Below, piece after piece: positions 7,244-56,616 of a stretch of DNA of 64,000 bases. Numbering within the stretch: position 1 is the first letter of the stretch; the number at the start of each line of letters is the position of its first letter. The stretch is from Eledone cirrhosa (Eukaryota): NCBI GenBank assembly GCA_964016885.1, contig OZ024741.1, positions 334,118,001-334,182,000 on the forward strand, in the 5' to 3' direction. The notes below the pieces were generated by a model that saw only the letters and a program-made list of their open reading frames with translations, was not told the DNA's origin and made no database searches. The translations under genes and the position numbers were made by a program.

Positions 7244-7245
<2 letters not shown>

Positions 7246-10122: not shown

Positions 10123-10258
10123 GTATATATATATATGTTTATATAAGTTGAAAAAAATGAAAACGAAATTTCATTTCTCACTCTTAGTATGGCACTTACT
10201 TAAATGTAAGTATGTATGTATACGTACATACATATATGTATACAGACGTACAGTAGCA

Positions 10259-10296
<38 letters not shown>

Positions 10297-10597
10297 TATA
10301 CACATATGCATACAGGTACACATACATATATGCACGCATCAGTTTAGCCGGTGTTTATTATAACGCCGGCCGCTTTGTTCGTTTGTTTGTCAACAAAGCG
10401 AACAGCCTGAATTTATGCCATACGGTGTTAAGGCAACCACGTCACCTTTTTGTTCAACACTGACACTTTTCAACTTATCGTTTTCTGTATGCCTGACCGA
10501 TTTAACTCACTCAATATGCAAATTAGGCTGCTCAGCCGTTAATTTTCATAAGGAAAGTATATACTTTCGAACGTTCAACTATCTGGCAGATGGGTAA

Positions 10598-10640
10598 ACG
10601 GTGCTGATGATAGCTAACAAGCTTGAAACTAGTACATCGT
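10598..10640 (+). ncRNA. Minimal type I hammerhead ribozyme (module C, copy 1)
   Basis: ACGGTG-CTGATGA-TAGCT(aaca)AGCTT-GAAA-CTAG-TA/CATCGT; palindromic ACTAGT stem III; GUA site. Confidence 0.88.
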
Positions 10641-11085
10641 TCCTGTGTCAGTGTTGAATAAAAAGGTGACGTGGTTGCCTTAACACCGTATGGCATAAAT
10701 TCAGGCTGTTCGCTTTGTTGACAAACAAACGAACAAAGCGGCCGGCGTTATAATAAACACCGGCTAAACTGATGCGTGCATATATGTATGTGTACCTGTA
10801 TGCATATGTGTATATATATGTATATATATATATATTTATATATATATGCATGCTACTGTACGTCTGTATACATATTTGTATGTACGTATACATACATACT
10901 TACATTTAAGTAAGTGCCATACTAAGAGTGAGAAATGAAATTTCGTTTTCATTTTTTTCAACTTATCGTTTTCGGTATGCCTGACCGATTTAACTCACTC
11001 AATATGCAAATTAGGCTGCTCAGCCGTTAATTTTCATAAGGAAAGTATATACTTTCGAACGTTCAACTATCTGGCAGATGGGTAA

Positions 11086-11128
11086 ACGGTGCTGATGATA
11101 GCTAACAAGCTTGAAACTAGTACATCGT
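11086..11128 (+). ncRNA. Minimal type I hammerhead ribozyme (module C, copy 2)
   Basis: Identical to 10598-10640. Confidence 0.88.
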
Positions 11129-11302
11129 TCCTGTGTCAGTGTTGAACAAAAAGGTGACGTGGTTGCCTTAACACCGTATGGCATAAATTCAGGCTGTTCG
11201 CTTTGTTGACAAACAAACGAACAAAGCGGCCGGCGTTATAATAAACACCGGCTAAACTGATGCGTGCATATATGTATGTGTACCTGTATGCATATGTGTA
11301 TA

Positions 11303-11352
<50 letters not shown>

Positions 11353-11420
11353 TGCTACTGTACGTCTGTATACATATATGTATGTACGTATACATACATA
11401 CTTACATTTATGTTTATATA

Positions 11421-17820: not shown

Positions 17821-19260
17821 ATTCATCGATATCATTTACGTATTTGAGATTTTCATTCAATTTATGAAACGGTTTAATCAAACCAGAGTTTAAATTGAGT
17901 GTGACATCCAGGAAGTTAACTACTTTAAGGTTGTATTCATATGTTATAGTTAGTCCTATTTCGAGTAGTAGTTTTCTTATATCTTTGCGTAGTTTTTCTA
18001 GTTTTTGGTTATTAAGGTTTTTAGCTAGGAGGAGAACATCGTCGCGGTATATTCCGCCGTGGAGATTGCTGAATTTTTCCTGGAGTCTAAAGGCGATAAA
18101 TAACCCCACAATATCAGTTATTTCCGCCGAATCGTTAGAGCCCATTGTTATGTCAAAGTTAGAGGGTCTATCTTTACGTACCCAATAACTGTTCTCAAAT
18201 TTGACTATAGTTTTCCTAGCTTCTAATATAATCTTAATTTCATCGTTTGTAAGGTCGGAGTTATCCTTAGCAAACTTAATGGCTCTATTCAAAGTTTCAG
18301 GTGATATCGATGAGTAATATTCATCGATATCAAACTGGATAAACTTAGATTTATTCTTATTGCTAATGCTATTAAACCATCTTATTGCTTCTTGGGTCTT
18401 CCCCCAGAGTTTAATGTTAACCTTAGCCTTAATTTGGGGGATGATTCTATCTAAGATATATTTGCTTATTTTACCTATATCTGATTTAGAGGGGCAGATT
18501 AATCTAATTTTAGGGTCATTATCAAAGTTTACCTTGTGGTCCTTAAGATTGAAAGTGGGTACCGCCGGTAAGAGTGGTCCTGTCCTATCTTCGATTCCGA
18601 GATTTTTCACTATTTCGCATGCCTCATCATTGATGTGCTTAAGGGTTACTTCACTCGTTTTTCTATATTTTTTATGTAATTCTTTTCGAATGAAGTTGTT
18701 GTATGTAGTGCAATCCATAGTGTACAGGTTTGATGTTTTGTCCGCTTTTACTACAATTCCTTTGGTGTTTTTAAGGTCGTCCAGTAGTTTTTTTATATCT
18801 TTCTGTAATTTGCTGTTGGTGTTGCGTCCTTTGAATTTAATTTTAAGGATTAAGTTCATAAGGTCCTGCTCAAATGCATCTAATAGTGGGTTGGTGGGTG
18901 GGTTTTTACAAGTCCTAAAACCGAATTTTTTGTTTACACCACTTTCTAATGTTGAGTTCATACGGCTTCTATCATAGTGGAGCGTTTTCCACCTGACACG
19001 TCGAATGAATTCATTAGTTTTTTTAATCATGCTCAATAAATATTCCTTTCTACCTTGGGTTGGTATGTTTTTGAGTGACATATCCAGGTAGTGTTTTTCC
19101 AGATATGCTGATGAGAATAGGTACAAATATGCGATAATGAATGTGTCTAAAAACGTCCATAAGTATGTATATATATGTGAAAATGTATATAAATAAGTAA
19201 ATATATATATATGTTTGATGTGTATAGTTAGATGTAAGTGTATTCATGTATTAAAGTGCT

Positions 19261-19291
<31 letters not shown>

Positions 19292-19314
19292 ATATGTGTG
19301 TATATATGTATGTG

Positions 19315-19345
<31 letters not shown>

Positions 19346-19936
19346 GTATATGTATGTATGTATATATATGTGTGTATGTATGTATGTGTATATGGATGTG
19401 TATGTATGTGTATGTGTGTACACATGGACTAGAGTATGTATGTATATATGTGTGTGTCTATACGTGTGTATATATAAAGATAAGTTGAGTATGAAAATGT
19501 ATACACATGAGCGCGTATGTATGTACATGAATACAAGTGTGTATATATATGTGTATGCATGTGTATATATATGTAAGTATGAATATGTGAATTGTGAGTA
19601 TATGTATTTTGTAGAGGTGTGCAAATATATTTGTGTGTGAATGCGTGGGTGAAAGAATACGTACACTTGAAAGAAAAATTTAAGTCTGAATGTTAAGTGC
19701 AAACACAAAACCAACCACGCATATCTTTACTATCTCTAATCCTTCTATAGATTTAGAAAAATAACCAATAATATATTCTATAAAAAATGTCAAAACAACA
19801 GATGGGAATCTAATTAATCACTGCCACCAAGAATTCTCACTGCTATCGAAAAACCACTCCTTCAACTATTCTTCTAACAACTTCACCCCTTCCTCCTAAT
19901 ATTCTCTATAAAAACTAAATAGGTCCTCAGTAATAT

Positions 19937-19982
19937 TATTCTGATGAAATGACAGTAAACAATAACATTGAAATATTGAATG
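19937..19982 (+). ncRNA. Candidate (imperfect) hammerhead in the PLE B pLTR; second copy at ~23520-23565
   Basis: CTGATGA-AATG(14 nt)CATT-GAAA-TATTG-AATG; stems I and III are weak and the cleavage triplet is ambiguous. Confidence 0.45.
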
Positions 19983-20256
19983 TCTGCATAACTAAAAGTT
20001 TGTAGATAGCTGTTTTAGGTTATGTAACTGTTATAGAAACACGTGTCAATAAATTCCTTTCAACTAAACTGTATCCATTCAAATCTTTCTATTTTTCTCC
20101 GGATTACTTTTGGAACTACAACTGGAACCGTCGAGCAAACTCTACGTGAGCTGATAATCTACTGTGTGTAATATTTATATTACAACACAACGGAAAAAAC
20201 TGTATATTTACCTCCTGTAAAGTCGAGCAACCCACACAGCAAACGCAACCACAACA

Positions 20257-22578
20257 ATGGAAAAACACTACCTGGATATGTCACTCAAAAACATACCAAC
20301 CCAAGGTAGAAAGGAATATTTATTGAGCATGATTAAAAAAACTAATGAATTCATTCGACGTGTCAGGTGGAAAACGCTCCACTATGATAGAAGCCGTATG
20401 AACTCAACATTAGAAAGTGGTGTAAACAAAAAATTCGGTTTTAGGACTTGTAAAAACCCACCCACCAACCCACTATTAGATGCATTTGAGCAGGACCTTA
20501 TGAACTTAATCCTTAAAATTAAATTCAAAGGACGCAACACCAACAGCAAATTACAGAAAGATATAAAAAAACTACTGGACGACCTTAAAAACACCAAAGG
20601 AATTGTAGTAAAAGCGGACAAAACATCAAACCTGTACACTATGGATTGCACTACATACAACAACTTCATTCGAAAAGAATTACATAAAAAATATAGAAAA
20701 ACGAGTGAAGTAACCCTTAAGCACATCAATGATGAGGCATGCGAAATAGTGAAAAATCTCGGAATCGAAGATAGGACAGGACCACTCTTACCGGCGGTAC
20801 CCACTTTCAATCTTAAGGACCACAAGGTAAACTTTGATAATGACCCTAAAATTAGATTAATCTGCCCCTCTAAATCAGATATAGGTAAAATAAGCAAATA
20901 TATCTTAGATAGAATCATCCCCCAAATTAAGGCTAAGGTTAACATTAAACTCTGGGGGAAGACCCAAGAAGCAATAAGATGGTTTAATAGCATTAGCAAT
21001 AAGAATAAATCTAAGTTTATCCAGTTTGATATCGATGAATATTACTCATCGATATCACCTGAAACTTTGAATAGAGCCATTAAGTTTGCTAAGGATAACT
21101 CCGACCTTACAAACGATGAAATTAAGATTATATTAGAAGCTAGGAAAACTATAGTCAAATTTGAGAACAGTTATTGGGTACGTAAAGATAGACCCTCTAA
21201 CTTTGACATAACAATGGGCTCTAACGATTCGGCGGAAATAACTGATATTGTGGGGTTATTTATCGCCTTTAGACTCCAGGAAAAATTCAGCAATCTCCAC
21301 GGCGGAATATACCGCGACGATGTTCTCCTCCTAGCTAAAAACCTTAATAACCAAAAACTAGAAAAACTACGCAAAGATATAAGAAAACTACTACTCGAAA
21401 TAGGACTAACTATAACATATGAATACAACCTTAAAGTAGTTAACTTCCTGGATGTCACACTCAATTTAAACTCTGGTTTGATTAAACCGTTTCATAAATT
21501 GAATGAAAATCTCAAATACGTAAATGTTGGGTCTAACCACCCCATCTCTATAATTAAATCTATCCCTAAAAATATTTCCCTTAGAATCTCGGGTCTATCT
21601 TCTAACATACAAGTATTTAAGGAACACGCCGAGTACTACGATAACGCCCTTAGTAAAGCAGGCTACCTCAACAAAATAGAGTACATAGATGGGAACAATC
21701 AAAACACCCAAAATAAATCCCACATAGGTAGATATAATAACACAACACCAAACCACACTTACTACCATAGTATGCACACCAGTAAACCAACAAACAAAAC
21801 TAATAGAAAGCGATGCAAAGAGTACTTATGGTATAACCCCGAATACAATAGCTCCATTAGTACAAATTTACCAGTACTCTTCTTTAAAATAATTAAAAGA
21901 CATTTTCCCACATCACACAAATACCACAAAATCCTAAACCCTACCACTATAAGACTGTCATACTCTACAGCGTTAAACCTTGAACAACACATAAAAAAGA
22001 TCAATACTAGAAGGTTAAACGAAAACACTAAGAACTTAAGTACAAAGAACCCCAAAAAAACAGTAGACAATACACTACAGAACATAAATAAACCACACCT
22101 AAGTTCGTCCGCAATACTACTCCAGAGAAAACCCAACGTACACAACTGTAACTGCACCTATCCTGACAACTGCCCCCTCGGCAATAACTGCCTGGAAAAA
22201 AATATTATTTATAAGTGTACCATTAAATCCGGAGGCAACGAGTGGTATTACGTGGGATCAACGGCAACATCGTTTAAATCTCGATTGTATAGGCATTCTT
22301 ACTCAATAAAACACCAGAGCCAAAGAAATGTAACAACTTTAGCAGAGAAAGCTTGGACGCTCAGGGATAGCAATCAAAAGTTTACCCTAAAATGGGAAAA
22401 ATTAGCTAAAACCCAAAGCTTTTCCAGGAGCCAAAATTTCTGCAAATTGTGTAATCTTGAGATTTATTACATAATCACACACAAGAAGAAACTGCTGAAT
22501 AACAGAATTGAACGAACATTATTCTGCCGTCACAGAACTAAAACCCTTTTTTCCCACTACAAGCCGAATATTACATAA
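20257..22578 (+). CDS. Penelope-type reverse transcriptase plus C-terminal GIY-YIG endonuclease (773 aa, uninterrupted)
   Basis: KADKT, LKDHK, FDIDEYYSSI, ITMGS, YRDD, FLDVTL, SNHP; CNC..CPL..C, IIY..YVGST..FKSRLYRH, CKLC..E, LN.R.E..CRH. Confidence 0.95.
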   Translation: MEKHYLDMSLKNIPTQGRKEYLLSMIKKTNEFIRRVRWKTLHYDRSRMNSTLESGVNKKFGFRTCKNPPTNPLLDAFEQDLMNLILKIKFKGRNTNSKLQKDIKKLLDDLKNTKGIVVKADKTSNLYTMDCTTYNNFIRKELHKKYRKTSEVTLKHINDEACEIVKNLGIEDRTGPLLPAVPTFNLKDHKVNFDNDPKIRLICPSKSDIGKISKYILDRIIPQIKAKVNIKLWGKTQEAIRWFNSISNKNKSKFIQFDIDEYYSSISPETLNRAIKFAKDNSDLTNDEIKIILEARKTIVKFENSYWVRKDRPSNFDITMGSNDSAEITDIVGLFIAFRLQEKFSNLHGGIYRDDVLLLAKNLNNQKLEKLRKDIRKLLLEIGLTITYEYNLKVVNFLDVTLNLNSGLIKPFHKLNENLKYVNVGSNHPISIIKSIPKNISLRISGLSSNIQVFKEHAEYYDNALSKAGYLNKIEYIDGNNQNTQNKSHIGRYNNTTPNHTYYHSMHTSKPTNKTNRKRCKEYLWYNPEYNSSISTNLPVLFFKIIKRHFPTSHKYHKILNPTTIRLSYSTALNLEQHIKKINTRRLNENTKNLSTKNPKKTVDNTLQNINKPHLSSSAILLQRKPNVHNCNCTYPDNCPLGNNCLEKNIIYKCTIKSGGNEWYYVGSTATSFKSRLYRHSYSIKHQSQRNVTTLAEKAWTLRDSNQKFTLKWEKLAKTQSFSRSQNFCKLCNLEIYYIITHKKKLLNNRIERTLFCRHRTKTLFSHYKPNIT

Positions 22579-22897
22579 AAGAGGGACATCCCCCAACTAT
22601 ATAAACCTTAATCTAGTTAGAAAAATATAAAAACAATCTCTTTTCAACATATATTAATAACCTTAAATTACCATACTAATAATGAAAAGATATGCTGATG
22701 AGAATAGGTACAAATATGCGATAATGAATGTGTCTAAAAACGTCCATAAGTATGTATATATATGTGAAAATGTATATAAATAAGTAAATATATATATATG
22801 TTTGATGTGTATAGTTAGATGTAAGTGTATTCATGCATTAAAGTGCTTATATATATATATATATATGTGTGTGTATATGTGTGTATATATGTATGTG

Positions 22898-22928
<31 letters not shown>

Positions 22929-23673
22929 GTATATGTATGTATGTATATATATGTGTGTATGTATGTATGTGTATATGGATGTGTATGTATGTGTATGTGT
23001 GTACACATGGACTAGAGTATGTATGTATATATGTGTGTGTCTATACGTGTGTATATATAAAGATAAGTTGAGTATGAAAATGTATACACATGAGCGCGTA
23101 TGTATGTACATGAATACAAGTGTGTATATATATGTGTATGCATGTGTATATATATGTAAGTATGAATATGTGAATTGTGAGTATATGTATTTTGTAGAGG
23201 TGTGCAAATATATTTGTGTGTGAATGCGTGGGTGAAAGAATACGTACACTTGAAAGAAAAATTTAAGTCTGAATGTTAAGTGCAAACACAAAACCAACCA
23301 CGCATATCTTTACTATCTCTAATCCTTCTATAGATTTAGAAAAATAACCAATAATATATTCTATAAAAAATGTCAAAACAACAGATGGGAATCTAATTAA
23401 TCACTGCCACCAAGAATTCTCACTGCTATCGAAAAACCACTCCTTCAACTATTCTTCTAACAACTTCACCCCTTCCTCCTAATATTCTCTATAAAAACTA
23501 AATAGGTCCTCAGTAATATTATTCTGATGAAATGACAGTAAACAATAACATTGAAATATTGAATGTCTGCATAACTAAAAGTTTGTAGATAGCTGTTTTA
23601 GGTTATGTAACTGTTATAGAAACACGTGTCAATAAATTCCTTTCAACTAAACTGTATCCATTCAAATCTTTCT

Positions 23674-26167
<2,494 letters not shown>

Positions 26168-26172
<5 letters not shown>

Positions 26173-27929
26173 GAAGAGAGAAGAAACATTTAGATATAAT
26201 TAGTAATAAAATGTATCATACCTAAACTGCTCCTAAATTCCTCGACTACGTAGTTTCGTGGCATAAACAAAAACAATATATCAAAGATATAGAGTCCTTG
26301 CGAGGTCTGCCAACTTATCAAGAGGATACCTCATTTTACTAGTCTCAAGAACGCGTCTACACGACGTGAGAAAGAATCCCAAAAGGCGGAGGGGGAGATA
26401 GTCACGCGATATAACGGTCGAGAAACAGAGCTAAGCCTCCTATAACCACGAAGAAAATACCACGGAGGCGGAGGGGGTATTCATATCGAGGCCGCAGAAG
26501 AGGTGGTGAAGAAGGCGAAAAGTATGAGTAATGGAAGCTTTCCAGTTGTCCCCACACTTCAAAGATTGCTCGACCAGAGGGAGTTATTAACAATATATTT
26601 AGAAACACACAGATACATGCGGACACACACATATATACATGAATGCATCCGCACCCAACTGTGAGTTAAGGGTGCCAACTTCACCGATGTTGCTCAATGA
26701 ATGACCGGGACAGACCAATTCAGTTGAACTAGACTGAACCAGTATCAGAGTTAAAAATACATTATGAAGAGAGAAGAAACATTTAGATATAATTAGTAAT
26801 AAAATGTATCATACCTAAACTGCTCCTAAATTCCTCGACTACGTAGTTTCGTGGCATAAACAAAAACAATATATCAAAGATATAGAGTCCTTGCGAGGTC
26901 TGCCAACTTATCAAGAGGATACCTCATTTTACTAGTCTCAAGAACGCGTCTACACGACGTGAGAAAGAATCCCAAAAGGCGGAGGGGGAGATAGTCACGC
27001 GATATAACGGTCGAGAAACAGAGCTAAGCCTCCTATAACCACGAAGAAAATACCACGGAGGCGGAGGGGGTATTCATATCGAGGCCGCAGAAGAGGTGGT
27101 GAAGAAGGCGAAAAGTATGAGTAATGGAAGCTTTCCAGTTGTCCCCACACTTCAAAGATTGCTCGACCAGAGGGAGTTATTAACAATATATTTAGAAACA
27201 CACAGATACATGCGGACACACACATATATACATGAATGCATCCGCACCCAACTGTGAGTTAAGGGTGCCAACTTCACCGATGTTGCTCAATGAATGACCG
27301 GGACAGACCAATTCAGTTGAACTAGACTGAACCAGTATCAGAGTTAAAAATACATTATGAAGAGAGAAGAAACATTTAGATATAATTAGTAATAAAATGT
27401 ATCATACCTAAACTGCTCCTAAATTCCTCGACTACGTAGTTTCGTGGCATAAACAAAAACAATATATCAAAGATATAGAGTCCTTGCGAGGTCTGCCAAC
27501 TTATCAAGAGGATACCTCATTTTACTAGTCTCAAGAACGCGTCTACACGACGTGAGAAAGAATCCCAAAAGGCGGAGGGGGAGATAGTCACGCGATATAA
27601 CGGTCGAGAAACAGAGCTAAGCCTCCTATAACCACGAAGAAAATACCACGGAGGCGGAGGGGGTATTCATATCGAGGCCGCAGAAGAGGTGGTGAAGAAG
27701 GCGAAAAGTATGAGTAATGGAAGCTTTCCAGTTGTCCCCACACTTCAAAGATTGCTCGACCAGAGGGAGTTATTAACAATATATTTAGAAACACACAGAT
27801 ACATGCGGACACACACATATATACATGAATGCATCCGCACCCAACTGTGAGTTAAGGGTGCCAACTTCACCGATGTTGCTCAATGAATGACCGGGACAGA
27901 CCAATTCAGTTGTATCTGTGTGTTTCTAA

Positions 27930-27936
<7 letters not shown>
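26168..27936 (-). mobile_element. Non-coding HHR module D: ~3 tandem 593-bp units plus a short inverted arm (~27912-27936)
   Basis: Identical ORF-track hits spaced 593 bp apart; the terminal GTATCTGTGTGTTTCTAAATATATT is an inverted internal segment. Confidence 0.9.
26239..26326 (-). ncRNA. Variant hammerhead (U3-A8 core, ~44-nt loop II); further copies at 26832-26919 and 27425-27512
   Basis: Reverse strand: TCCTC-TTGATAA-GTTGGCA(loop)TGCCAC-GAAA-CTACGTAG-TC/GAGGA; GUC site. Confidence 0.75.
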
Positions 27937-27970
<34 letters not shown>

Positions 27971-27977
27971 GTATATA

Positions 27978-28032
<55 letters not shown>

Positions 28033-28147
28033 GTATATATATATGTGTATATATATATATATGTATATATATGTATATATATGTATATATATATATATGT
28101 ATATATATGTATATATATGTATATATATATATATGTATATATGTATA

Positions 28148-28216
<69 letters not shown>

Positions 28217-28219
28217 GTG

Positions 28220-28268
<49 letters not shown>

Positions 28269-28292
28269 GTATATATATATGTATATATATGT

Positions 28293-29202
28293 ATATGGAT
28301 GTAAATATAATGTATTTTGCAATACACTTTATGCTTAATTAAAAGCATTTTGAAGACCGTAAGCTATTGTTTTAAAGTAGTGACAAATTCACTCACTTCG
28401 ATCTCAGCAAACAGGAGGAGATAAGCCGACATGACATGTTTCGCTTTTGTTGAAGCTTATCAAGGCCAACTACCCCGCCCGTCTGCTGAGATTAATGATG
28501 TTATATTCTTATAGAAATCTAGTAAATAATCAGGAGCTGATTATGCAGAGCGGTTGTTGGTCAGGCAGAAATTTACAATTCTAATTTTTAATTTCTGCCT
28601 GACCAACAACCGCTCTGCATAATCAGCTCCTGATTATTTACTAGATTTCTATAAGAATATAACATCATTAATCTCAGCAGACGGGCGGGGTAGTTGGCCT
28701 TGATAAGCTTCAACAAAAGCGAAACATGTCATGTCGGCTTATCTCCTCCTGTTTGCTGAGATCGAAGTGAGTGAATTTGTCACTACTTTAAAACAATAGC
28801 TTACGGTCTTCAAAATGCTTTTAATTAAGCATAAAGTGTATTGCAAAATACATTATATTTACATCCATATATATATTGCTATTTCAGAGCTACAATTCTA
28901 ATTTTTAATTTCTGCCTGACCAACAACCGCTCTGCATAATCAGCTCCTGATTATTTACTAGATTTCTATAAGCAGACGGGCGGGGTAGTTGGCCTTGATA
29001 AGCTTCAACAAAAGCGAAACATGTCATGTCGGCTTATCTCCTCCTGTTTGCTGAGATCGAAGTGAGTGAATTTGTCACTACTTTAAAACAATAGCTTACG
29101 GTCTTCAAAATGCTTTTAATTAAGCATAAAGTGTATTGCAAAATACATTATATTTACATCCATATATATATTGCTATTTCAGAGCTACAATTCTAATTTT
29201 TA
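28293..29202 (+). mobile_element. Non-coding HHR module E: inverted arm ~28293-28573 plus two tandem units (~317 and ~295 bp)
   Basis: ACAATTCTAATTTTTA recurs at ~28575, 28892 and 29187; the arm is the reverse complement of unit 1. Confidence 0.9.
28696..28739 (+). ncRNA. Variant hammerhead (U3-A8 core); copies at 28991-29034 (+) and 28424-28467 (-)
   Basis: GGCC-TTGATAA-GCTT(caacaa)AAGC-GAAA-CATGTCATG-TC/GGCT. Confidence 0.8.
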
Positions 29203-29229
29203 GTATATATATATATATGTATATATATG

Positions 29230-29294
<65 letters not shown>

Positions 29295-29309
29295 GTATAT
29301 ATATATATG

Positions 29310-29358
<49 letters not shown>

Positions 29359-29387
29359 GTATATATATGTATATATATATATATGTA

Positions 29388-31201
29388 TAGAAATTGGAAT
29401 AAATGCTCTGAAATAGCGATATATATGTGAATATAGACATAGAATATTCGAAAATATTCTGTATGTTTATAATAAACATTTTGAAGACCTAATCGCTATA
29501 GAATAGAATACGTCACGTATTACAATTAGATTCTCGATTAAAAGCAAGGGAAGTAATCTACGCGTTTCATTCTCGTTAGAAATCATCAGGACTACATATC
29601 CAGTGCTTTTATCGAGAATGACACAGCTAGAGACTTATAGAATACTTAGCTGTGTACAGGAACTGGTTTGAAAGAGCGGTTTGCCGGTCCGGCAGAAATT
29701 AGAAATTGGAATAAATGCTCTGAAATAGCGATATATATGTGAATATAGACATAGAATATTCGAAAATATTCTGTATGTTTATAATAAACATTTTGAAGAC
29801 CTAATCGCTATAGAATAGAATACGTCACGTATTACAATTAGATTCTCGATAAAAAGCAAGGGAAGTAATCTACGCGTTTCATTCTCGTTAGAAATCATCA
29901 GGACTACATATCCAGTGCTTTTATCGAGAATGACACAGCTAGAGACTTATAGAATACTTAGCTGTGTACAGGAACTGGTTTGAAAGAGCGGTTGCCGGTC
30001 CGGCAGAAATTAGAAATTGGAATAAATGCTCTGAAATAGCGATATATATGTGAATATAGACATAGAATATTCGAAAATATTCTGTATGTTTATAATAAAC
30101 ATTTTGAAGACCTAATCGCTATAGAATAGAATACGTCACGTATTACAATTAGATTCTCGATAAAAGCAAGGGAAGTAATCTACGCGTTTCATTCTCGTTA
30201 GAAATCATCAGGACTACATATCCAGTGCTTTTATCGAGAATGACACAGCTAGAGACTTATAGAATACTTAGCTGTGTACAGGAACTGGTTTGAAAGAGCG
30301 GTTGCCGGTCCGGCAGAAATTAGAAATTGGAATAAATGCTCTGAAATAGCGATATATATGTGAATATAGACATAGAATATTCGAAAATATTCTGTATGTT
30401 TATAATAAACATTTTGAAGACCTAATCGCTATAGAATAGAATACGTCACGTATTACAATTAGATTCTCGAAAAGCAAGGGAAGTAATCTACGCGTTTCAT
30501 TCTCGTTAGAAATCATCAGGACTACATATCCAGTGCTTTTATCGAGAATGACACAGCTAGAGACTTATAGAATACTTAGCTGTGTACAGGAACTGGTTTG
30601 AAAGAGCGGTTGCCGGTCCGGCAGAAATTAGAAATTGGAATAAATGCTCTGAAATAGCGATATATATGTGAATATAGACATAGAATATTCGAAAATATTC
30701 TGTATGTTTATAATAAACATTTTGAAGACCTAATCGCTATAGAATAGAATACGTCACGTATTACAATTAGATTCTCGATAAAAGCAAGGGAAGTAATCTA
30801 CGCGTTTCATTCTCGTTAGAAATCATCAGGACTACAGTATGTTTATTATAAACATACAGAATATTTTCGAATATTCTATGTCTATATTCACATATATATC
30901 GCTATTTCAGAGCATTTATTCCAATTTCTAATTTCTGCCGGACCGGCAACCGCTCTTTCAAACCAGTTCCTGTACACAGCTAAGTATTCTATAAGTCTCT
31001 AGCTGTGTCATTCTCGATAAAAGCACTGGATATGTAGTCCTGATGATTTCTAACGAGAATGAAACGCGTAGATTACTTCCCTTGCTTTTATCGAGAATCT
31101 AATTGTAATACGTGACGTATTCTATTCTATAGCGATTAGGTCTTCAAAATGTTTATTATAAACATACAGAATATTTTCGAATATTCTATGTCTATATTCA
31201 T
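29388..31201 (-). mobile_element. Non-coding HHR module F: ~4.7 tandem units of 308-312 bp plus inverted arm ~30839-31201
   Basis: HHR motif starts at 29553, 29865, 30175, 30483 and 30793 on the minus strand; inverted copy to the right. Confidence 0.92.
31034..31076 (+). ncRNA. Minimal type I hammerhead (module F, inverted arm); five minus-strand copies in the tandem array
   Basis: GTAGTC-CTGATGA-TTTCT(aacg)AGAAT-GAAA-CGCG-TA/GATTAC; palindromic ACGCGT. Confidence 0.88.
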
Positions 31202-33092
<1,891 letters not shown>

Positions 33093-33554
33093 GGAATAGA
33101 ATGAAACGAAATTTCATTTCTAACTCTTAGTATGGCACTTACTTAAATGAAAGTATGTATGTATGTATGTATACGTACATACATATATGTATACAGACGT
33201 ACGGTAGTATGTATATATATACATACATGCACACATATATATATGTACGTATCGGTTTACCGAACATTTATTATAATGCTCGGTTTGTTTGTTTGTAAAC
33301 AAACAAACAGCCCGTATTACGCCGTACAGTGTTTAGGCAACCACGTCACCTTTTTGTTCAACACTGACAACATTTCAAACTGGCTGTTTGTTTGTTTACA
33401 AACAAACAAACCGAGCATTATAATAAATGTTCGGTAAACCGATACGTGCATATATATTTGTGTGCATATATGTATATATATATATACATACTACTGTACG
33501 TCTGTATACATATATGTATGTATGTATACATACATACATACATACTTTCATTTA
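33093..33554. mobile_element. Fold-back fragment of a diverged module-C subfamily (no HHR retained)
   Basis: Shares CTCTTAGTATGGCACTTACTTAAATG and AGGCAACCACGTCACCTTTTTGTTCAACACTGAC with 10145-10466; 33383-33554 inverts ~33140-33312. Confidence 0.8.
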
Positions 33555-33601: not shown

Positions 33602-36600
33602 ATATCTATCTATCTAAGGCGGGTAAAATTTCCGAGATCCATATACAGGTTCTCTCCAGCGGTCTCTGTCCCTGATTATCGCTGCCATGTCCTGCATCTC
33701 CAACAGACCAGTGTCTGTCCTTAGGGCATCAACGTACGTTAATCTTGGTCTTCCTCTTCTAGTGTGTCCATGTAGGGGCTCCCAAAGGAGTACTGAGTGC
33801 AATGTCAACTCTGGATGTCGGTGAGCATGTCCAGCTAACCTCAGTCTCCTCTGTGTCACTTTTGATCTGACTTTTGGGATGCTCCCATACAGCTCTGAGT
33901 TTTTCGTCCTCAATGTATACTGATTAATGTTCAGAGCCATCCTCAGCATTCTCGTGTAGCACCCATCCACCATCTGAGTGAGTTTCTTGGTCAGTGTCCA
34001 AGTCTCAGACCCATATAGCAGCACAGACTCCACTACAGCAATGAAGAGGCGGATTTTCAGGTCTCTACGAAGGTCCGACTTCCACACCGATCTCAAGCTG
34101 TGGCACGCCGCCCAGGCCTTGCTCTTCCTCTCAACCACATCATCCTCCGTATTCCCAATCTTTGCTCCCAAATACAGGAAGTCCTCAACCAATTCCAGCG
34201 GCTTCCCGCCTACATTAGTGATCCCCTCTGGCTTCTCAACATTCTCTACCAGATATTTTGTTTTAGTCTCATTCATTCTCAGCCCCACACTCATCGACAC
34301 AGTCTCAACCTCCCGCATCAAATCCTCTGCCTCCCTCACTGTATTTGTCACCAAAACTATGTCGTCGGCAAATTCAGCATCCGATACCTTTTTCGCCCTA
34401 ACTCTCCTGCTCTGAGCCGGTGCTACAGTAAAGCCAGAGTCCTGGTGTTTCTCCAGTGCAAGGCGCATACAATAGTCCACTACAATGACAAAAAGGTAGG
34501 GAGCCAATGTATCTCCCTCGAGCACTCCAGCCAATATCTCAAAGAACTCTGTCATCCCATCAGGTGTAATGACTTGGGCTTTGGTGTTGGTGTAGAGCAG
34601 TGATATCAGGTCCACTATCTTCTTGGGGATTCCATAAGCCTGTAAGATCTTCATCAGGCAGTAACGGTCCACAGAATCAAAGACCTTCCTAAAGTCAATG
34701 AAAACCATGATCGCAGGAAGGCACTTTGCTCTAGCTCCCTCTAATATCCTCCTCAGCATCAGGATGTGACTGGTGGTTGATCTACCCTCTCTGAAGCCGT
34801 TCTGGTTGTCCCTGAGCTTCTTCTCCATCTCAGGCTGGATCCTGTTAAGAATCATCCTGTTGAGGGTCTTTGCCACAAGTGACGTCAGTGAGATCCCCCG
34901 GTAGTTGTTGGTGTTAGAGAGATCTCCCTTCTTTGGCACCGGGACGATGTTACTGATCCTCCACTGATTCGGGGCAACTCCTTTCTCCAGTGCCCCGTTA
35001 CAGAACCCCAGGATGATATCATCAAAATCACACCTCCTAATCACCTCCGATGCCACTCCATCTTCTCCATGAACCTTGCCCTCCTTGATCCTCTTCTTGG
35101 CTCTCTGAAGCTCCTCTCTGGTGAAGGGCTCTGTCTCAACATCCAGTTCCTCAAACAGCCGCCTGATCTCCCCAGTGCTCTGGGCTGTGGAGGGTGGCTC
35201 TCCTAGTAGGGCCCTAAAATGGTCTAGCCATTTCCTCTTCCTATCCTCGGGCCCCGTTCCCTGGATCTGACTCGAACACCTTCTCTTCCTCCCTGTGATC
35301 TCGTTGATGATCATCCAGCTCTCCTTACATCCAGATATGTCAACCGCTCTCTCCACACTTCTGATCTTCTCTATCAGTGCCTCCTCTCTGACCTCAGTGT
35401 AAGCGGTACAGAGCTCTTCCCTCATCACCTCCACAGTCTCCATCCTCTCCTCCGTGGGATCAGCATAGAATTGGTCCCTGGCAGCTTTCAGGTGTTCTCT
35501 GGCTGCACACACTTTTGGGTTTGCAGAGCTGACGTGCTTCCCTTTGTTCTTTTTCCTCGGCACCAGTGTTTCACTTGCTTCCGCCACTGCATTGGTGAAG
35601 TGCCCGTACCTCCCCGTCACACTCTCCTCAGTCCATCCAATCTCTCTCTCCTCTGACTCTCCACACAGAGCACTAAACCTGTTTCTCACTTCCACTGTGA
35701 ACCTCTCCTGTAGCTTATCATATTCCTTGAAAGCTCCCCAGTCATAGATTGTTCTCCGGGGCTGAGCCTTGCTCTTTCTTAAGCTCACGCGTACCTCACT
35801 CATAACAAGCCTGTGGTCACTACCCAGTGTACTGAAATAGCTGTATGGTTCCGTGTTCAGAACACTATTCCGCCACTTTTTCCTCACCAGAATGAAATCA
35901 ATCTGGGACTTGGACAGGTGCACATCTGAGATGTAGGTCCACATCTTCCCCAGATTCTTCCTAAACCTTAGGTTGGTCGCCATCAAGTTCGCCTCCAGCA
36001 GGGTGTCTCTCAGTAGTCTTCCATTTCGGTTGGTGTTGTTATAGAAGTACCAGCAAGGATCTTCACTGCCCTCCTTACTCAGATGTGCATTGAAGTCCCC
36101 AAAAACAAGCAGGATATTGTGTGCCTGAGTGGTGTTGACAGCTCTACACACCTCCTCATGGAACTCTTCCGCATTCACATCACTGTCCTCCTCGGTTGGA
36201 CTATAGGCTGAGATGACTGTCAGTCTTGGGTTTCCATTGAAGGTCACCCTCAACACTCGCGGGGAGATAGGCATTATTTCCCTCACCAACAGATTGGTTT
36301 TTGCACTGAACACAAAACCCACTCCCCCTACTGCAGCATTTGTTGTGTTCTTCACTGCCGATGTAGTGATGAGCTGGCTCTTCCTCCCGATCATCACACT
36401 CCTCACGGGCTCATCGTGTAGAATCCTGTGTTCTTGGATCGCAAGTATCTGTATACCACTCTCCTCGAACAGATGTCCCAACTCCTCTCTCTTCTCCAGC
36501 GTCCGAATAGTCCTCACATTCAAAGTGCCCATTTTGATGGCTCTTCTGCAGGACAAAACTGCATTCTTTATATTTGTCTCAGAGACAGCTGATCCATCAT

Positions 36601-36915
36601 CCACTGGCCCTCTCTGTGGCTCTAAGCCAGCAGAGTCATAACGACCAGGCTGCTCCTTGACAGTGTAATTAGGGGCTTTAACCCTAGTGCTGTTAGATTG
36701 ACTCTCCATATTTCTTTTCAATGGCTGACAATACCCTACCGGCGCCACTCGAATAAGGTAGTTATTTAACCCATAAATGGAACCCTAACAGGTACTACCA
36801 CCCCGGGCCAGGGCAGACCTGGGAGTCATTACAACTAAGGGGTAACTCCACATTACCCACATCTCCTGAACTCCCGAACTGGAGCCTTGCCACTGGATGT
36901 AGTTTAATGTCATAT
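33602..36915 (-). mobile_element. Apparently full-length RTE-clade LINE with short 5' leader and (TAGA)n tail
   Basis: Single APE-RT ORF, GC-richer 5' leader at 36749-36915, TAGA repeats right after the stop. Confidence 0.9.
33614..36748 (-). CDS. RTE LINE APE endonuclease-reverse transcriptase (1044 aa, uninterrupted)
   Basis: GTLNVRT, IQEHR, AYSPT, GDFNA, SQIDFIL, SDH; NYRGISL, QNGFR, GDTLAPYLF, FADD, LLYGSETW, RRLRLAGH, RGRP. Confidence 0.95.
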   Translation of the reverse strand: MAPVGYCQPLKRNMESQSNSTRVKAPNYTVKEQPGRYDSAGLEPQRGPVDDGSAVSETNIKNAVLSCRRAIKMGTLNVRTIRTLEKREELGHLFEESGIQILAIQEHRILHDEPVRSVMIGRKSQLITTSAVKNTTNAAVGGVGFVFSAKTNLLVREIMPISPRVLRVTFNGNPRLTVISAYSPTEEDSDVNAEEFHEEVCRAVNTTQAHNILLVFGDFNAHLSKEGSEDPCWYFYNNTNRNGRLLRDTLLEANLMATNLRFRKNLGKMWTYISDVHLSKSQIDFILVRKKWRNSVLNTEPYSYFSTLGSDHRLVMSEVRVSLRKSKAQPRRTIYDWGAFKEYDKLQERFTVEVRNRFSALCGESEEREIGWTEESVTGRYGHFTNAVAEASETLVPRKKNKGKHVSSANPKVCAAREHLKAARDQFYADPTEERMETVEVMREELCTAYTEVREEALIEKIRSVERAVDISGCKESWMIINEITGRKRRCSSQIQGTGPEDRKRKWLDHFRALLGEPPSTAQSTGEIRRLFEELDVETEPFTREELQRAKKRIKEGKVHGEDGVASEVIRRCDFDDIILGFCNGALEKGVAPNQWRISNIVPVPKKGDLSNTNNYRGISLTSLVAKTLNRMILNRIQPEMEKKLRDNQNGFREGRSTTSHILMLRRILEGARAKCLPAIMVFIDFRKVFDSVDRYCLMKILQAYGIPKKIVDLISLLYTNTKAQVITPDGMTEFFEILAGVLEGDTLAPYLFVIVVDYCMRLALEKHQDSGFTVAPAQSRRVRAKKVSDAEFADDIVLVTNTVREAEDLMREVETVSMSVGLRMNETKTKYLVENVEKPEGITNVGGKPLELVEDFLYLGAKIGNTEDDVVERKSKAWAACHSLRSVWKSDLRRDLKIRLFIAVVESVLLYGSETWTLTKKLTQMVDGCYTRMLRMALNINQYTLRTKNSELYGSIPKVRSKVTQRRLRLAGHAHRHPELTLHSVLLWEPLHGHTRRGRPRLTYVDALRTDTGLLEMQDMAAIIRDRDRWREPVYGSRKFYPP

Positions 36916-43588: not shown

Positions 43589-43881
43589 TCTACCTGGAGT
43601 TGCGACCGATAGATAGTATTAGCAATTGGAAAGACCAACGGAAACATTGTTCCCTCGGTCTGATTTGACGAAAGTCGATCGTTCCTTTATATATAAATAT
43701 ATTTAAATTTTAGAAATGACTTCTACAGAACTAGAACTGCTTCTTTCATAAGAAATCATCAGAAAAGTACTTTTCTAAGAAATGAAACAGTTCTAGTCCT
43801 GTAGAAGTCATTTCTATAATAAAATAAATGTGTATACTCCATTAATGTATGGAGTACCATTTTTAATATCGGGAATCTGCC

Positions 43882-43996: not shown

Positions 43997-45900
43997 TAAT
44001 TGTTTCTACTTTAGGCACAAGACCAGTAATTACCCAGTGCATTACTGGTACTTTATTTTATCGACCCCGTAAGGATGAAAGGCAAAGTCAACCTCGGCGG
44101 GATTTGAACTCAGATCGTAAAGGGACGTCTCTTTATGATCTGAGTTCAAATCCCGCCGAGGTTGACTATGCTGGAAACCATGGCGTCCGACCCTCTACCG
44201 AAACTGCCAATCCACCGCCTTATATATATATAATATTGGGTATTAGGATTGGTGTTCTGAAATAGCGATGTATACATGAATGTATGTATAGTATATTTGG
44301 CAATATACCGTATGTTTAATTAAAAACATTTTGAAGACCATACGCTATCGGTTTTAAAGTAGTCACTATGTCACTTCTTTTCGGTGAAAGGAGGGAGAGA
44401 AGCTAACAGTCTGTTACATCCTGTTTGGCAATCATCAGAGTCACACACTTCCGCTGAAAATTATAGAAGCTGGATTCTTATAGAATTCCAGTAATAATCA
44501 GGAGCTGATTAGCGTGAAACAGACTGTTAGCTTCTCTCCCTTCTTTCGCCAAAAAAGAAGTGACATATTCACTACTTTAAAACTGATAGCCGGTACTTTA
44601 TTTTATTGATGCCGGAAGGATAAAAGTCGAAATTGATCTCAGTGGGATTTGAACTCAGAATGTAAAGATCACAAACAAATACTACAAAAAATAATATATC
44701 TGATACTCTAATGATTATGATCTACTGCATTATGATGGGATGAAATAATGTTTTCTAATTTAGGCACAAGTCCAACAATTTTGGGGGAGGTGATTGTTTA
44801 TTATATTTACCCCAGTTTATTACTGGTGCTCTATTTATCAATCCTGTAAGGATGAAAGGCAAAGCTAACGTAAAGAATGCAAAGAACCATAGCTCTGTAC
44901 TACAAAACGTTGCCTGATGCTTTACTAATACTGCCATGAAATAATATTATCACGATAATGTACAGCAGTGGATTGGCAGTATCGGGAGAGCATCGAACAA
45001 TATGCTTTCTGGCTTATAGTTACGGCCCTTTATTTTCTGAGTTCAAATCCCACTGAGATTATCTTTGCCTGTCATCCTTACGGGGATCGATAATATAACG
45101 CATTAGTAATGCACTGGGTGCAATTTAATTGACTTTCTTCTTCCCCAAATGTTTGCCTTGTACCTAAATCAGAAACCAGTATTCATATGACAAAGTTTTC
45201 CTCTGCCATATCTTATGATATGATAAACTTGAGATTATATATAGTAACAGAGAACCATGACCTGATGAAGGTACAATAATAATTGAATACTGGAATAAGA
45301 TAACTATGAAAAAAAACATGTCTTTATTCATCTAATAATAATCATTAAATTTAGTGAAAGGAATAAGGAAAAAATTTCCATCTTTCTGAGTATAGTAATT
45401 TCCTTTCTACATTTTTCTGTCACCTCACAGCATTCATTTGTTATTGAATTTAAAAGTTATATTCACTTTTACTTTTTCTGTTTTCTGAAATACATGATAC
45501 GAACACAAAAGGAACAGTGATTCTTTTTTTTTGTTTTCTAGAAATTCCAGGAACTAACATAAATCAGACATGGTTTATTTAAAAGCTGTCGGGCATGAAG
45601 TTTTGTATTTAAAATCACTTTAAAAATTAATGAAAATCCGATGATGATGATGAACTAAATGAAGACAACAATAAAAACGAAGAAAGATCAAGAAAAACAG
45701 GATAATAATTGTTTCTACTTTTGGCACAAGGTCAGCAATTACCCAGTACATTACTGGTACTTTATTTTATCGACCCCGTAAGGATGAAAGACAAAATTAA
45801 CCTCAGCGGGATTTGTACTCAGAATGGCAAGGGCCGTAACTGTATGCATCAAAACATGGCATCCGACACTCTACCAATACTACCAATTCACCGCCTATAA
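43997..45900. mobile_element. Cluster of degraded tRNA-derived SINEs with a Deu/Nin-like domain (~43997-44222 -, 44590-44720 -, 44750-44935 -, 44962-45175 +, 45705-45898 -)
   Basis: Recurrent GAGTTCAAATCCC..GAG...TTTGCCTTTCATCCTTACGGGGTCGATAAAATAAAGTACCAG motif on either strand. Confidence 0.75.
44237..44590 (-). mobile_element. Old, diverged member of the E/F module family with degenerate HHR (~44401-44443) and inverted arm (~44514-44590)
   Basis: TCTGAAATAGCGAT, TTTTGAAGACC, TTTTAAAGTAG, TAATCAGGAGCTGATTA shared with E/F; reverse strand CTGATGA...G(T/A)AA-CAGACTG-TT. Confidence 0.72.
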
Positions 45901-48347: not shown

Positions 48348-48390
48348 ATAAATATATATGTATATATATATATATATAAATATATATGTA

Positions 48391-50123
48391 CATTATGAAG
48401 AGAGAAGAAACATTTAGATATAATTAGTAATAAAATGTATCATACCTAAACTGTTCCTAAATTCCTCGACTACGTAGTTTCGTGGCATAAACAAAAACAA
48501 TATATCAAAGATATAGAGTCCTTGCGAGGTCTGCCGACTTATCAAGAGGATACCTCATTTTACTAGTCTCAAGAACGCGTCTACACGACGTGAGAAAGAA
48601 TCCCAAAAGGCGGAGGGGGAGATAGTCACGCGATATAACGGTCGAGAAACAGAGCTAAGCCTCTTATAACCACGAAGAAAATACCACGGAGGCGGAAGGG
48701 GTATTCATATCGAGGCCGTAGAAGAGGTAGTGAAGAAGGCGAGAAGTATGAGTAATGGAAGCTTTCCAGTTGTCCCCACACCTCAAAGATTGCTCGACCA
48801 GAGGGAGTTATTAATATATTTAGAAACACACAGATACATGCGGACGCACACATATATACCCTTAACTCACAGTTGGGTGCGGATGCATTCATGTATATAT
48901 GTGTGCGTCCGCATGTATCTGTGTGTTTCTAAATATATTAATAACTCCCTCTGGTCGAGCAATCTTTGAGGTGTGGGGACAACTGGAAAGCTTCCATTAC
49001 TCATACTTCTCGCCTTCTTCACTACCTCTTCTACGGCCTCGATATGAATACCCCCTCCGCCTCCGTGGTATTTTCTTCGTGGTTATAAGAGGCTTAGCTC
49101 TGTTTCTCGACCGTTATATCGCGTGACTATCTCCCCCTCCGCCTTTTGGGATTCTTTCTCACGTCGTGTAGACGCGTTCTTGAGACTAGTAAAATGAGGT
49201 ATCCTCTTGATAAGTCGGCAGACCTCGCAAGGACTCTATATCTTTGATATATTGTTTTTGTTTATGCCACGAAACTACGTCGTCGAGGAATTTAGGAACA
49301 GTTTAGGTATGATACATTTTATTACTAATTATATCTAAATGTTTCTTCTCTCTTCATAATGTATTTTTAACTCTGATACTGGTTCAGTCTAGTTCAAACT
49401 GAATTGGTCTGTCCCAGTCATTCATTGAGCAACATCGGTGAAGTTGGCACCCTTAACTCACAGTTGGGTGCGGATGCGTTCATGTATATATGTGTGCGTC
49501 CGCATGTATCTGTGTGTTTCTAAATATATTAATAACTCCCTCTGGTCGAGCAATCTTTGAGGTGTGGGGACAACTGGAAAGCTTCCATTACTCATACTTC
49601 TCGCCTTCTTCACTACCTCTTCTACGGCCTCGATATGAATACCCCCTCCGCCTCCGTGGTATTTTCTTCGTGGTTATAAGAGGCTTAGCTCTGTTTCTCG
49701 ACCGTTATATCGCGTGACTATCTCCCCCTCCGCCTTTTGGGATTCTTTCTCACGTCGTGTAGACGCGTTCTTGAGACTAGTAAAATGAGGTATCCTCTTG
49801 ATAAGTCGGCAGACCTCGCAAGGACTCTATATCTTTGATATATTGTTTTTGTTTATGCCACGAAACTACGTCGTCGAGGAATTTAGGAACAGTTTAGGTA
49901 TGATACATTTTATTACTAATTATATCTAAATGTTTCTTCTCTCTTCATAATGTATTTTTAACTCTGATACTGGTTCAGTCTAGTTCAAACTGAATTGGTC
50001 TGTCCCAGTCATTCATTGAGCAACATCGGTGAAGTTGGCACCCTTAACTCACAGTTGGGTGCGGATGCGTTCATGTATATATGTGTGCGTCCGCATGTAT
50101 CTGTGTGTTTCTAAATATATTAA
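48391..50123 (+). mobile_element. Module D second locus (D2): inverted arm 48391-48859 plus ~2.1 tandem 591-bp units
   Basis: Close match to 26168-27936; HHRs at 48463-48550 (-), 49202-49289 (+) and 49793-49880 (+). Confidence 0.9.
49202..49289 (+). ncRNA. Variant hammerhead (U3-A8, 44-nt loop II), module D2
   Basis: TCCTC-TTGATAA-GTCGGCA(loop)TGCCAC-GAAA-CTACGTCG-TC/GAGGA. Confidence 0.72.
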
Positions 50124-56575: not shown

Positions 56576-56585
56576 TATATATATT

Positions 56586-56616
<31 letters not shown>

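What the first reader, a model, noticed from the sequence alone, without database searches (positions are those of the whole stretch)
28293..31201. Modules E and F are diverged relatives with conserved sequence blocks and covarying hairpins
Seen on the HHR-sense strand of both: AATTTCTGCC.GACC..CAACCGCTCT, TTCTATAAG, GGTCTTCAAAATG and GCTATTTCAGAGC in the same order. The hairpin after GGTCTTCAAA is ATGCTT..AAGCAT in E and ATGTTT..AAACAT in F. In both, the HHR caps a long stem of different sequence (E: ATCTCAGCAGAC/GTTTGCTGAGAT; F: ATTCTCGATAAAAGCA/TGCTTTTATCGAGAAT). Inference: a ~310-nt highly structured RNA, plausibly circular, whose conserved blocks are promoter or RT-recognition signals.
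Basis: partly seen in the sequence, partly recalled or inferred. Interest (0 to 1): 0.75.

Follow-up and report, generated by a model that had tools for sequence, protein, structure and literature searches.

The report
Retrozyme subfamilies share Penelope copying signals
These two 310-base repeats are diverged relatives that carry a predicted self-cutting RNA motif and likely belong to a known kind of animal jumping element (retrozymes); their shared sequence blocks flank the two fixed points where inserted copies end, so the blocks are likely signals read by the Penelope-type enzyme that would copy the RNA into DNA.

Summary
Observation confirmed. E (317 nt) and F (310 nt) are homologous (local score 146 against at most 44 in 300 shuffles). 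A third copy, G at 44.2 kb, keeps 34 of 35 bases of blocks B2-B4 against 63-68% elsewhere. Each unit has a type I hammerhead on a long helix I of different sequence, plus small hairpins with 3 compensatory pairs in 20; three sequences cannot give formal covariation statistics. Folding strength lies mostly in helix I, so 'highly structured' is overstated. E and F are two-armed insertions in (TA)n: one arm ends at the first base of B1, the other 30-35 nt earlier, so B4 opens a Penelope-type tail and B1 lies directly 3' of the second end. Best reading: non-LTR retrozymes copied by a Penelope-like reverse transcriptase that starts at two internal sites, with B4/B1 as its signal. An internal snRNA-type promoter (B1+B2) is a live, non-exclusive rival. 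Cleavage, expression and circularity are untested, and no partner element was identified. Earlier unchecked notes of this scan report a 310-nt family with the same two-armed footprint elsewhere in this genome. New member of a known kind.

The parts
27930..28296 (.). (TA)n-type tract, left target of the E insertion
28287..28573 (-). E inverted arm: one unit from B1 to the internal AT run, no tail (ends at site 1); hammerhead cleavage predicted at 28428
28574..29203 (+). E forward arm: 16 nt of tail, one full 317-nt unit, a second unit with a 22-nt deletion after B2; ends at the first base of B1 (site 2)
28590..28616 (+). Block B1 of E: sequence-conserved, no conserved fold, begins at site 2
28647..28655 (+). 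Block B2 of E: TATA-like; 57 nt after B1 start and 53 nt before the hammerhead core in both E and F
28671..28762 (+). E extended helix I (15-bp outer stem) capped by a type I hammerhead with U3-A8 core (28700-28735), predicted cleavage after 28735
28765..28788 (+). Hairpin P2 after helix I
28795..28883 (+). 3' domain closed by helix P3 (28795-28800 with 28878-28883): unpaired B3 (28805-28817), hairpins P4 (28815-28832) and P5 (28835-28854), AT run holding site 1
28877..28907 (+). Penelope-type tail of about 30 nt between site 1 and site 2; starts with block B4 (28878-28890)
29204..29388 (.). (TA)n-type tract between E and F
29389..30836 (-). F tandem arm: 4.7 copies of the 310-nt unit, differing only by small indels, mostly in runs; five hammerhead cores; ends at the first base of B1 (site 2)
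30839..31200 (+). F opposite arm, ends in the internal AT run (site 1): B4 30901-30913, B1 30930-30956, B2 30987-30995, helix I 31010-31098, hammerhead core 31040-31070 (C3-G8, U.U at base of helix II, palindromic helix III), B3 31139-31151
31200..33092 (.). (TA)n-type tract, right target of the F insertion
44228..44590 (-). G: decayed third subfamily; minus arm 44228-44514 with B2, B3, B4 and tail ending near site 2; short opposite arm 44507-44590 interrupted by another repeat
10143..11410 (+). D: 488-nt hammerhead repeat with the same two-armed anatomy (58-nt tail); possible distant relative
19101..23675 (+). Young Penelope-like element (open 785-aa frame, terminal repeats 99.5% identical); candidate helper, not shown to be the partner

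Best explanation
E, F and G are diverged subfamilies of a non-coding tandem element with a predicted type I hammerhead ribozyme, likely non-LTR retrozymes that a Penelope-like element (PLE) enzyme would copy into (TA)n from two fixed internal start sites, with blocks B4 and B1 likely serving as that enzyme's signals. Steps: (1, inferred) a tandem array is transcribed through more than one unit; (2, predicted) the hammerheads cut it into 310-317-nt monomers, F probably as a dimeric hammerhead, and a host ligase may close them; (3, inferred) a PLE protein binds the RNA at and 3' of the tail, nicks (TA)n DNA and primes cDNA from both cut strands, one at site 1 and one at site 2; (4, inferred) copying round a circle or along an uncut multimer gives tandem arms; (5, shown) the product is two opposed arms in (TA)n, one with and one without a tail. 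Odds: retrozyme with PLE-type mobilisation about 0.85; B4/B1 as enzyme signal about 0.5; circular template about 0.5.
For: Hammerheads in E and F units; E matches Rfam HH9 at E=3.7e-5, below the gathering score. Forcing the hammerhead fold costs 5.2 (E) and 1.5 (F) kcal/mol in the circle. The E forward arm and F tandem arm both leave the unit at offset 1, the first base of B1; the opposite arms leave 30-35 nt earlier. Contig loose ends in other runs break into TA repeats near the same two places. All 6 of 6 two-armed insertions in the window with both ends readable (E, F, D, D2, two PLEs) have one tailed and one tail-less arm. Craig 2021 (PMC8557442, passages) describes the inverted copy and 30-40-bp tail of PLEs; Frangieh 2024 (PMC11167929, parts 1-2 of 4) shows the tail is the stretch between two internal RT start sites and that RNA 3' of the start is required. 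Ends lie 140-170 nt 3' of the predicted cleavage site, not at it. G keeps 34 of 35 block bases (p below 1e-4) and E-family variants avoid the blocks (2 of 59 against 34 of 258 positions, p=0.02). A fourth subfamily in run X1 keeps the B1 skeleton at the same spacing (one contig).
Against: Cleavage, transcription and circles were not observed. No PLE end in the window carries B1 within 3 mismatches, and a profile of E/F/G finds only hammerhead-centred matches elsewhere. In vitro the anole PLE used uncut RNA and did not need its hammerhead (PMC11167929), so a circle is not required. Eight of nine Xenopus retrozymes did not cleave in vitro (10.64898/2026.07.22.740005). In E the predicted ensemble does not populate helices I and III of the core. 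Position next to an end does not show binding: B1+B2 fit a promoter as well. Covariation rests on three sequences.
Confidence: 0.6

Rival explanations
1. B1 and B2 form an internal snRNA-type promoter (proximal element plus TATA-like box) that makes each unit self-transcribing, as reported for newt satellite 2; only B3/B4 would concern copying. Not exclusive of the best explanation.
For: B1-to-B2 distance is 57 nt and B2-to-core 53 nt in both E and F. B1 has no conserved fold. A pyrimidine run followed by a purine lies 26-27 nt after the TATA-like start in E, F, G and D. F matches 12 of 14 bases of the fly U6 PSEA printed in PMC4227766 (1 of 100 shuffles). D has an exact octamer. Precedent: passage in PMC2220036. 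Unchecked notes e1-8804744 and e1-8804837 claim such promoters in other families of this genome.
Against: E matches the same PSEA at only 10 of 14 (66 of 100 shuffles), and by eye the match lies in the 3' part, not the invariant 5' half named in PMC1761439. B2 sits at the tip of a predicted hairpin in F and G, though not stably in E. No exact octamer in E, F or G (best 7, 6, 6 of 8). Each unit has two runs of 4-5 T that would tend to stop polymerase III before one unit is read (terminator rule recalled). The host's own snRNA promoters could not be compared.
Confidence: 0.3
2. The template is a linear, largely uncut multimeric transcript; the hammerhead is a weak or protein-assisted passenger and circles are not the transposition intermediate.
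For: Anole PLE: hammerhead mutants insert normally and uncut RNA is the main substrate (PMC11167929). F has a U.U at the base of helix II and a minimal helix III, features linked to weak cleavage in axolotl (PMC7229834). The two E units in one arm differ by a 22-nt deletion.
Against: The F copies of one arm show no substitutions over 1.4 kb, as expected from repeated copying of one circle, though a young multimer gives the same. The core is kept through a U3-A8 for C3-G8 swap, which implies selection on catalysis.
Confidence: 0.3
3. The tail and B1 are conserved as a DNA site for the PLE endonuclease (homing into or resolving its own repeats), and arrays grow by DNA-level unequal exchange.
For: The fly Penelope endonuclease needed the tail for DNA recognition, and the anole protein cuts ATT motifs (both as stated in PMC11167929); B1 begins with AATTT at site 2.
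Against: Targets here are (TA)n tracts, not existing copies. G.U-compatible variants in helices point to selection on RNA (10 of 13, or 5 of 8 without post hoc end pairs).
Confidence: 0.15
4. E, F and G are only 5'-truncated terminal repeats of an autonomous PLE located elsewhere in the genome, not independent elements.
For: Xenopus retrozymes are homologous to PLE terminal repeats (10.64898/2026.07.22.740005). The F site-2 region resembles the end of the PLE at 19.1-23.7 kb (0.1% of 3000 random windows score as high; noticed post hoc).
Against: Units join head to tail with no coding spacer; 4.7 direct copies of F; no overall similarity to PLE ends in the window.
Confidence: 0.1

Closest known systems
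Metazoan non-LTR retrozymes of coral, mussel and axolotl (Cervera and de la Pena 2020, PMC7229834; Li, Clavereau and Pollet 2026, 10.64898/2026.07.22.740005)
   Same: Tandem non-coding units of about 300 nt, low GC, one type I hammerhead per unit, PLEs in the same genome; F shares the U.U at the base of helix II with axolotl HHR_Amex2.
   Different: Expression, cleavage and circles are shown there and untested here. In the parts read, those papers do not describe conserved non-ribozyme blocks, two-armed insertions or fixed ends.
Penelope-like elements and their pLTR/tail (Craig 2021, PMC8557442; Frangieh 2024, PMC11167929; Cervera and de la Pena 2014, PMC4209133)
   Same: Inverted 5'-truncated arm, tail at one end only, (TA)n targets, type I hammerhead with palindromic helix III; U3-A8 core known from Schistosoma PLE hammerheads.
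   Different: No reading frame; start sites lie in non-coding sequence; no homology to a PLE end was found in the window.
Newt satellite 2 and Schistosoma hammerhead satellites (passage in PMC2220036)
   Same: Hammerhead-bearing tandem repeat with conserved upstream boxes that could be an internal promoter.
   Different: Promoter activity is reported there; here the evidence is only spacing and a partial motif match.

Membership tests
Non-LTR retrozyme | Tandem repeat of 150-450-nt units, GC below 50% | tested here: met
   310 nt x 4.7; 317 nt x 2; region GC 23-28% including TA tracts
Non-LTR retrozyme | Type I hammerhead in at least two consecutive units | tested here: met
   E 3 cores, F 6 cores; G core decayed and not found by the descriptor
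Non-LTR retrozyme | No protein-coding frame | tested here: met
   only microsatellite-derived frames of 120 aa or more touch the region; shorter frames not examined
Non-LTR retrozyme | No LTR, primer-binding site or polypurine tract | not tested
   None evident on reading; no dedicated search
Non-LTR retrozyme | Self-paired RNA that can still adopt the hammerhead fold | tested here: met
   Circle z -4.8 (E) and -4.3 (F); constrained fold costs 5.2 and 1.5 kcal/mol, (prediction only)
Non-LTR retrozyme | Self-cleavage | not testable with these tools
   Needs in vitro transcription
Non-LTR retrozyme | Expressed as linear and circular monomer RNA | tested here: inconclusive
   Runs laid were contigs of unrecorded kind, which cannot show RNA ends or circles
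Non-LTR retrozyme | Many dispersed copies; PLEs in the same genome | tested here: met
   732 (F) and 1369-1436 (E) contigs laid in runs X3/X4; PLE-like frames in the window
PLE-mobilised insertion | Inverted arm plus a tail at one end only | tested here: met
   E, F, D, D2 and two PLEs, 6 of 6 readable
PLE-mobilised insertion | Sequence homology to the pLTR of an autonomous PLE | tested here: not met
   Window only; the whole genome is not held, so other PLE families are unexamined
Autonomous Penelope-like element | RT plus GIY-YIG reading frame | tested here: not met
   None in E, F or G
snRNA-type promoter repeat (newt satellite 2 type) | Proximal element matching host snRNA genes, with octamer | tested here: inconclusive
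   Host genes unavailable; fly PSEA match in F only; no exact octamer in E/F/G
Rfam Hammerhead_HH9 | Score at or above the gathering threshold of 52 bits | tested here: not met
   E scores 31.1 bits; F not listed; no gathering-level hit in the window

The most novel reading that the evidence does not exclude
A retrozyme clan has kept one fixed cassette (P3 domain with unpaired B3, tail with B4, then B1 and B2) while replacing helix I and even the hammerhead core pair. This cassette is the minimal RNA address that a Penelope reverse transcriptase binds to start copying at two exact sites on a circle, and B1+B2 may double as the promoter. It would be a phylogenetic footprint of how animal ribozyme circles recruit their helper enzyme.
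Probability: 0.3. Interest if true: 0.62.

Novelty: new member of a known kind. Interest (0 to 1): 0.38.

Why it matters
How animal retrozymes are transcribed and how PLE enzymes recognise them is proposed but not shown in the papers read. Three diverged subfamilies with exact, shared insertion ends narrow the candidate signals to about 60 conserved bases. These can be mutated in the existing in vitro PLE assay or in a reporter, which separates enzyme signal from promoter.

Tried and rejected
Whole genome: not held, so no genome-wide homologue set, no host snRNA promoters and no R-scape-scale test. RNA runs: no RNA holder listed; this says nothing on expression. The 340-nt error-free contigs in X1 and X2 and the 310-base back-joint in X6 were rejected as evidence of circular RNA because tandem DNA gives the same. 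Pattern scan for B1: 4 metagenome hits, all GC-rich contigs with no similarity beyond the pattern, taken as chance; 0 viral hits. Rfam microRNA and snoRNA hits are artefacts of the inversion palindrome and TA tracts. A B4-B1 helix is predicted in E and F but the X1 subfamily breaks 2 of its 5 pairs; not accepted. The B1 hairpin of F is absent in E. D as a relative: whole-unit alignment not significant (z 1.4-3.0), profile hit E=0.003 centred on the hammerhead and P2; it shares the B1 9-mer just 3' of its own site 2; left as possible. The 22-nt deletion in E is not intron-like. Pfam and PDB did not name the 785-aa frame; it is 34% identical over 258 aa to a frame with a weak GIY-YIG hit. PMC2837043 held none of five promoter terms. 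A search for mollusc U6 promoter elements returned 0 papers. Look-ups of earlier notes by sequence and by relatives were blank.

Full report
Setting. The window is AT-rich animal DNA full of (TA)n tracts and retroelement fragments. Earlier notes of this scan call the genome octopus; I did not test that. No whole genome is held, so all comparisons rest on the window, contigs of coded public runs and papers.

Observation. The four blocks occur in the stated order in E and F. Distances are nearly fixed: B1 to B2 57/57 nt, B2 to core 53/53, core to B3 105/99, B3 to B4 73/72, B4 to unit end 29/29. E against F scores 146 in local alignment; 0 of 300 dinucleotide shuffles reach it (maximum 44). E/G scores 219 and F/G 147. 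Identity is 59 of 62 inside the blocks and 147 of 255 outside, but the blocks were chosen for that, and a permutation of run lengths gives only p=0.26 and 0.026. Two further checks are stronger. The 36 variable positions listed for the E family in runs X1-X4 fall at 2 of 59 specified block positions and 34 of 258 others, p=0.02. One X1 contig shows a fourth subfamily whose B1 keeps AATTT, GACC and CAAYCGCT at the same spacing and changes the rest.

Ribozyme. My descriptor finds type I hammerheads in three E and six F copies. E has the U3-A8 core pair, known from Schistosoma PLE hammerheads (PMC4209133, passage), a 4-bp helix II and a 4-bp helix III; it matches Rfam HH9 at 31.1 bits, below the 52-bit threshold. 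F has the usual core, a U.U at the base of helix II and a six-base palindrome for helix III that can pair between two copies, as described for dimeric hammerheads. The 'long stem' is the outer part of helix I: 15 of 15 pairs in E, 16 of 16 in F, 11 of 13 in decayed G, each with its own sequence. The minimum-energy circle does not show the full core; forcing it costs 5.2 (E) and 1.5 (F) kcal/mol. An X4 loose end shows a helix II variant with one pair swapped on both sides.

Structure. Circles fold better than shuffles (E -74.3, z -4.8; F -67.8, z -4.3) with 52% and 60% of bases paired; the F antisense strand does as well (z -4.8), the E antisense does not (z -1.6). By domain, helix I plus hammerhead gives z -6.1 and -6.4; the 5' domains -0.2 and -2.3; the 3' domains -1.8, -1.2 and -2.5 (G); G's helix I domain gives +1.3. 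In the 3' domain a helix P3 closes a loop holding unpaired B3 and hairpins P4 and P5. Over E, F and G, 59 of 60 cells pair and 3 of 20 pairs change on both sides; 18 of 500 shuffles match this, and slid controls pair 28-52%. Of 17 E-family variants in stems 10 keep pairing; of the 13 seen at 2% or more in X3/X4, 10 do; leaving out end pairs that I added after seeing the data, 5 of 8 do, against 20-36% expected (p 0.01-0.12). Structure is therefore supported modestly, not at R-scape level. Half of B4 is simply the 3' strand of P3.

Insertion anatomy. E and F are each two opposed arms in (TA)n. The E forward arm and the F tandem arm both stop after the first base of B1 (offset 1 of 317 and of 310); G stops within about 3 nt of the same point. 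The opposite arms stop in the internal AT run, offsets 282-287 and 278. Loose ends in run X3 turn into TA repeats near both places. D (58-nt difference), D2 and two PLEs of the window (about 60 and 100 nt) show the same asymmetry: 6 of 6 insertions with both ends readable; G and the PLE at 19.1-23.7 kb have only one readable end. This is the inverted copy and one-sided tail of PLEs (PMC8557442, passages). Frangieh 2024 (PMC11167929, parts 1-2 of 4) shows in vitro that the tail is the stretch between two internal start sites of reverse transcription, that both target strands are cut and extended, and that RNA 3' of the start is needed. Mapped on E and F, B4 opens the tail and B1 begins at site 2. 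The ends are not at the hammerhead cut, so priming is internal or at a natural transcript end. That is the basis for reading B4/B1 as enzyme signals; binding is inferred, not shown.

Promoter alternative. Fixed spacing, lack of a conserved B1 fold and a pyrimidine-purine step 26-27 nt after the TATA-like start in E, F, G and D fit an internal promoter, for which newt satellite 2 is the precedent (PMC2220036, passage; the original paper was not read). I ran the spacing check after reading notes e1-8804744 and e1-8804837. Against it: the fly PSEA match holds for F (12 of 14; 1 of 100 shuffles) but not E (66 of 100); B2 tops a hairpin in F and G; there is no exact octamer in E, F or G, and each unit has two T4-5 runs.

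Partner. No PLE end in the window carries B1 or aligns with E/F beyond the hammerhead or AT-rich sequence. The end of the young element at 19.1-23.7 kb resembles F around site 2 (0.1% of 3000 random windows; E 3%; six comparisons, noticed by eye): a lead only.

Distribution. Six runs from four studies hold the F unit; their kind is not on record. X3 lays 732 contigs on F with one variant above 5%, so F is young and uniform; E is more varied. Depths are not copy numbers.

Literature. Read: 10.64898/2026.07.22.740005 parts 1-3 of 5 (supplements closed and may list invertebrate families); PMC7229834 parts 2-3 of 6, Discussion and passages (supplements not opened); PMC11167929 parts 1-2 of 4; passages of PMC8557442, PMC4209133, PMC1761439, PMC4227766, PMC2220036 and PMC13282606 (an Octopus vulgaris repeat annotation with 0 mentions of ribozyme or retrozyme). 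Searches listed no paper whose title or abstract start describes cephalopod retrozymes or such blocks; most listed papers were seen as listings only and subscription journals are not covered.

Verdict. A real, homologous set of retrozyme subfamilies with a PLE footprint: new members of a known kind. The scan noted a 310-nt family and the two-armed pattern before on other DNA of this genome (unchecked; my own reading of the two ends was noted earlier). What this locus adds is the comparison across subfamilies that ties the conserved blocks to the fixed ends. Interest 0.38.

Noticed in passing
window 10143-11410 and 33094-33554: A second hammerhead repeat family (488-nt unit, exact octamer, TATA-like box, 58-nt tail) in two two-armed insertions; shares helix II geometry, a B1 9-mer and a post-helix hairpin motif with E/F/G.
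   Followed up: partly
window 17833-23675: Young Penelope-like element with an open 785-aa frame and a 100% identical inverted copy beside an assembly gap; its hammerhead-like motif near 23524 did not pass my descriptor.
   Followed up: partly
window 1434-7245: Penelope-like element with inverted arm and terminal repeats holding a hammerhead with a CUGAAGA core; frames interrupted.
   Followed up: partly
window 57998-62368: 5'-truncated Penelope-like element on the minus strand with a canonical hammerhead (61899 in the inverted arm) and a tail of about 100 nt; a B3-like 11-mer near 61750 is probably chance.
   Followed up: partly
window 26164-27912 and 48389-50123: A 593-nt tandem unit, 99.9% identical within the array and 97.5% between two loci, in TA tracts with an inverted arm; no hammerhead found by my descriptor.
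   Followed up: no
window 55204-56600: Another inverted/tandem non-coding insertion between TA tracts with a CUGAUGA-like box near 56320 but no descriptor hit.
   Followed up: no
window 43690-43836: Short palindromic fragment with a CUGAUGA box and helix II resembling that of F; not hit by the E/F/G profile.
   Followed up: no
window 33614-36784: Open 1056-aa frame on the minus strand that reads like a LINE endonuclease plus reverse transcriptase (by eye; not searched).
   Followed up: no
window 28835-28854, 30862-30881 and 44286-44306: Hairpin P5 is capped by different four-base loops: GCAA in E, UUCG in F, GCCA in G, GAAA in an X1 variant.
   Followed up: partly
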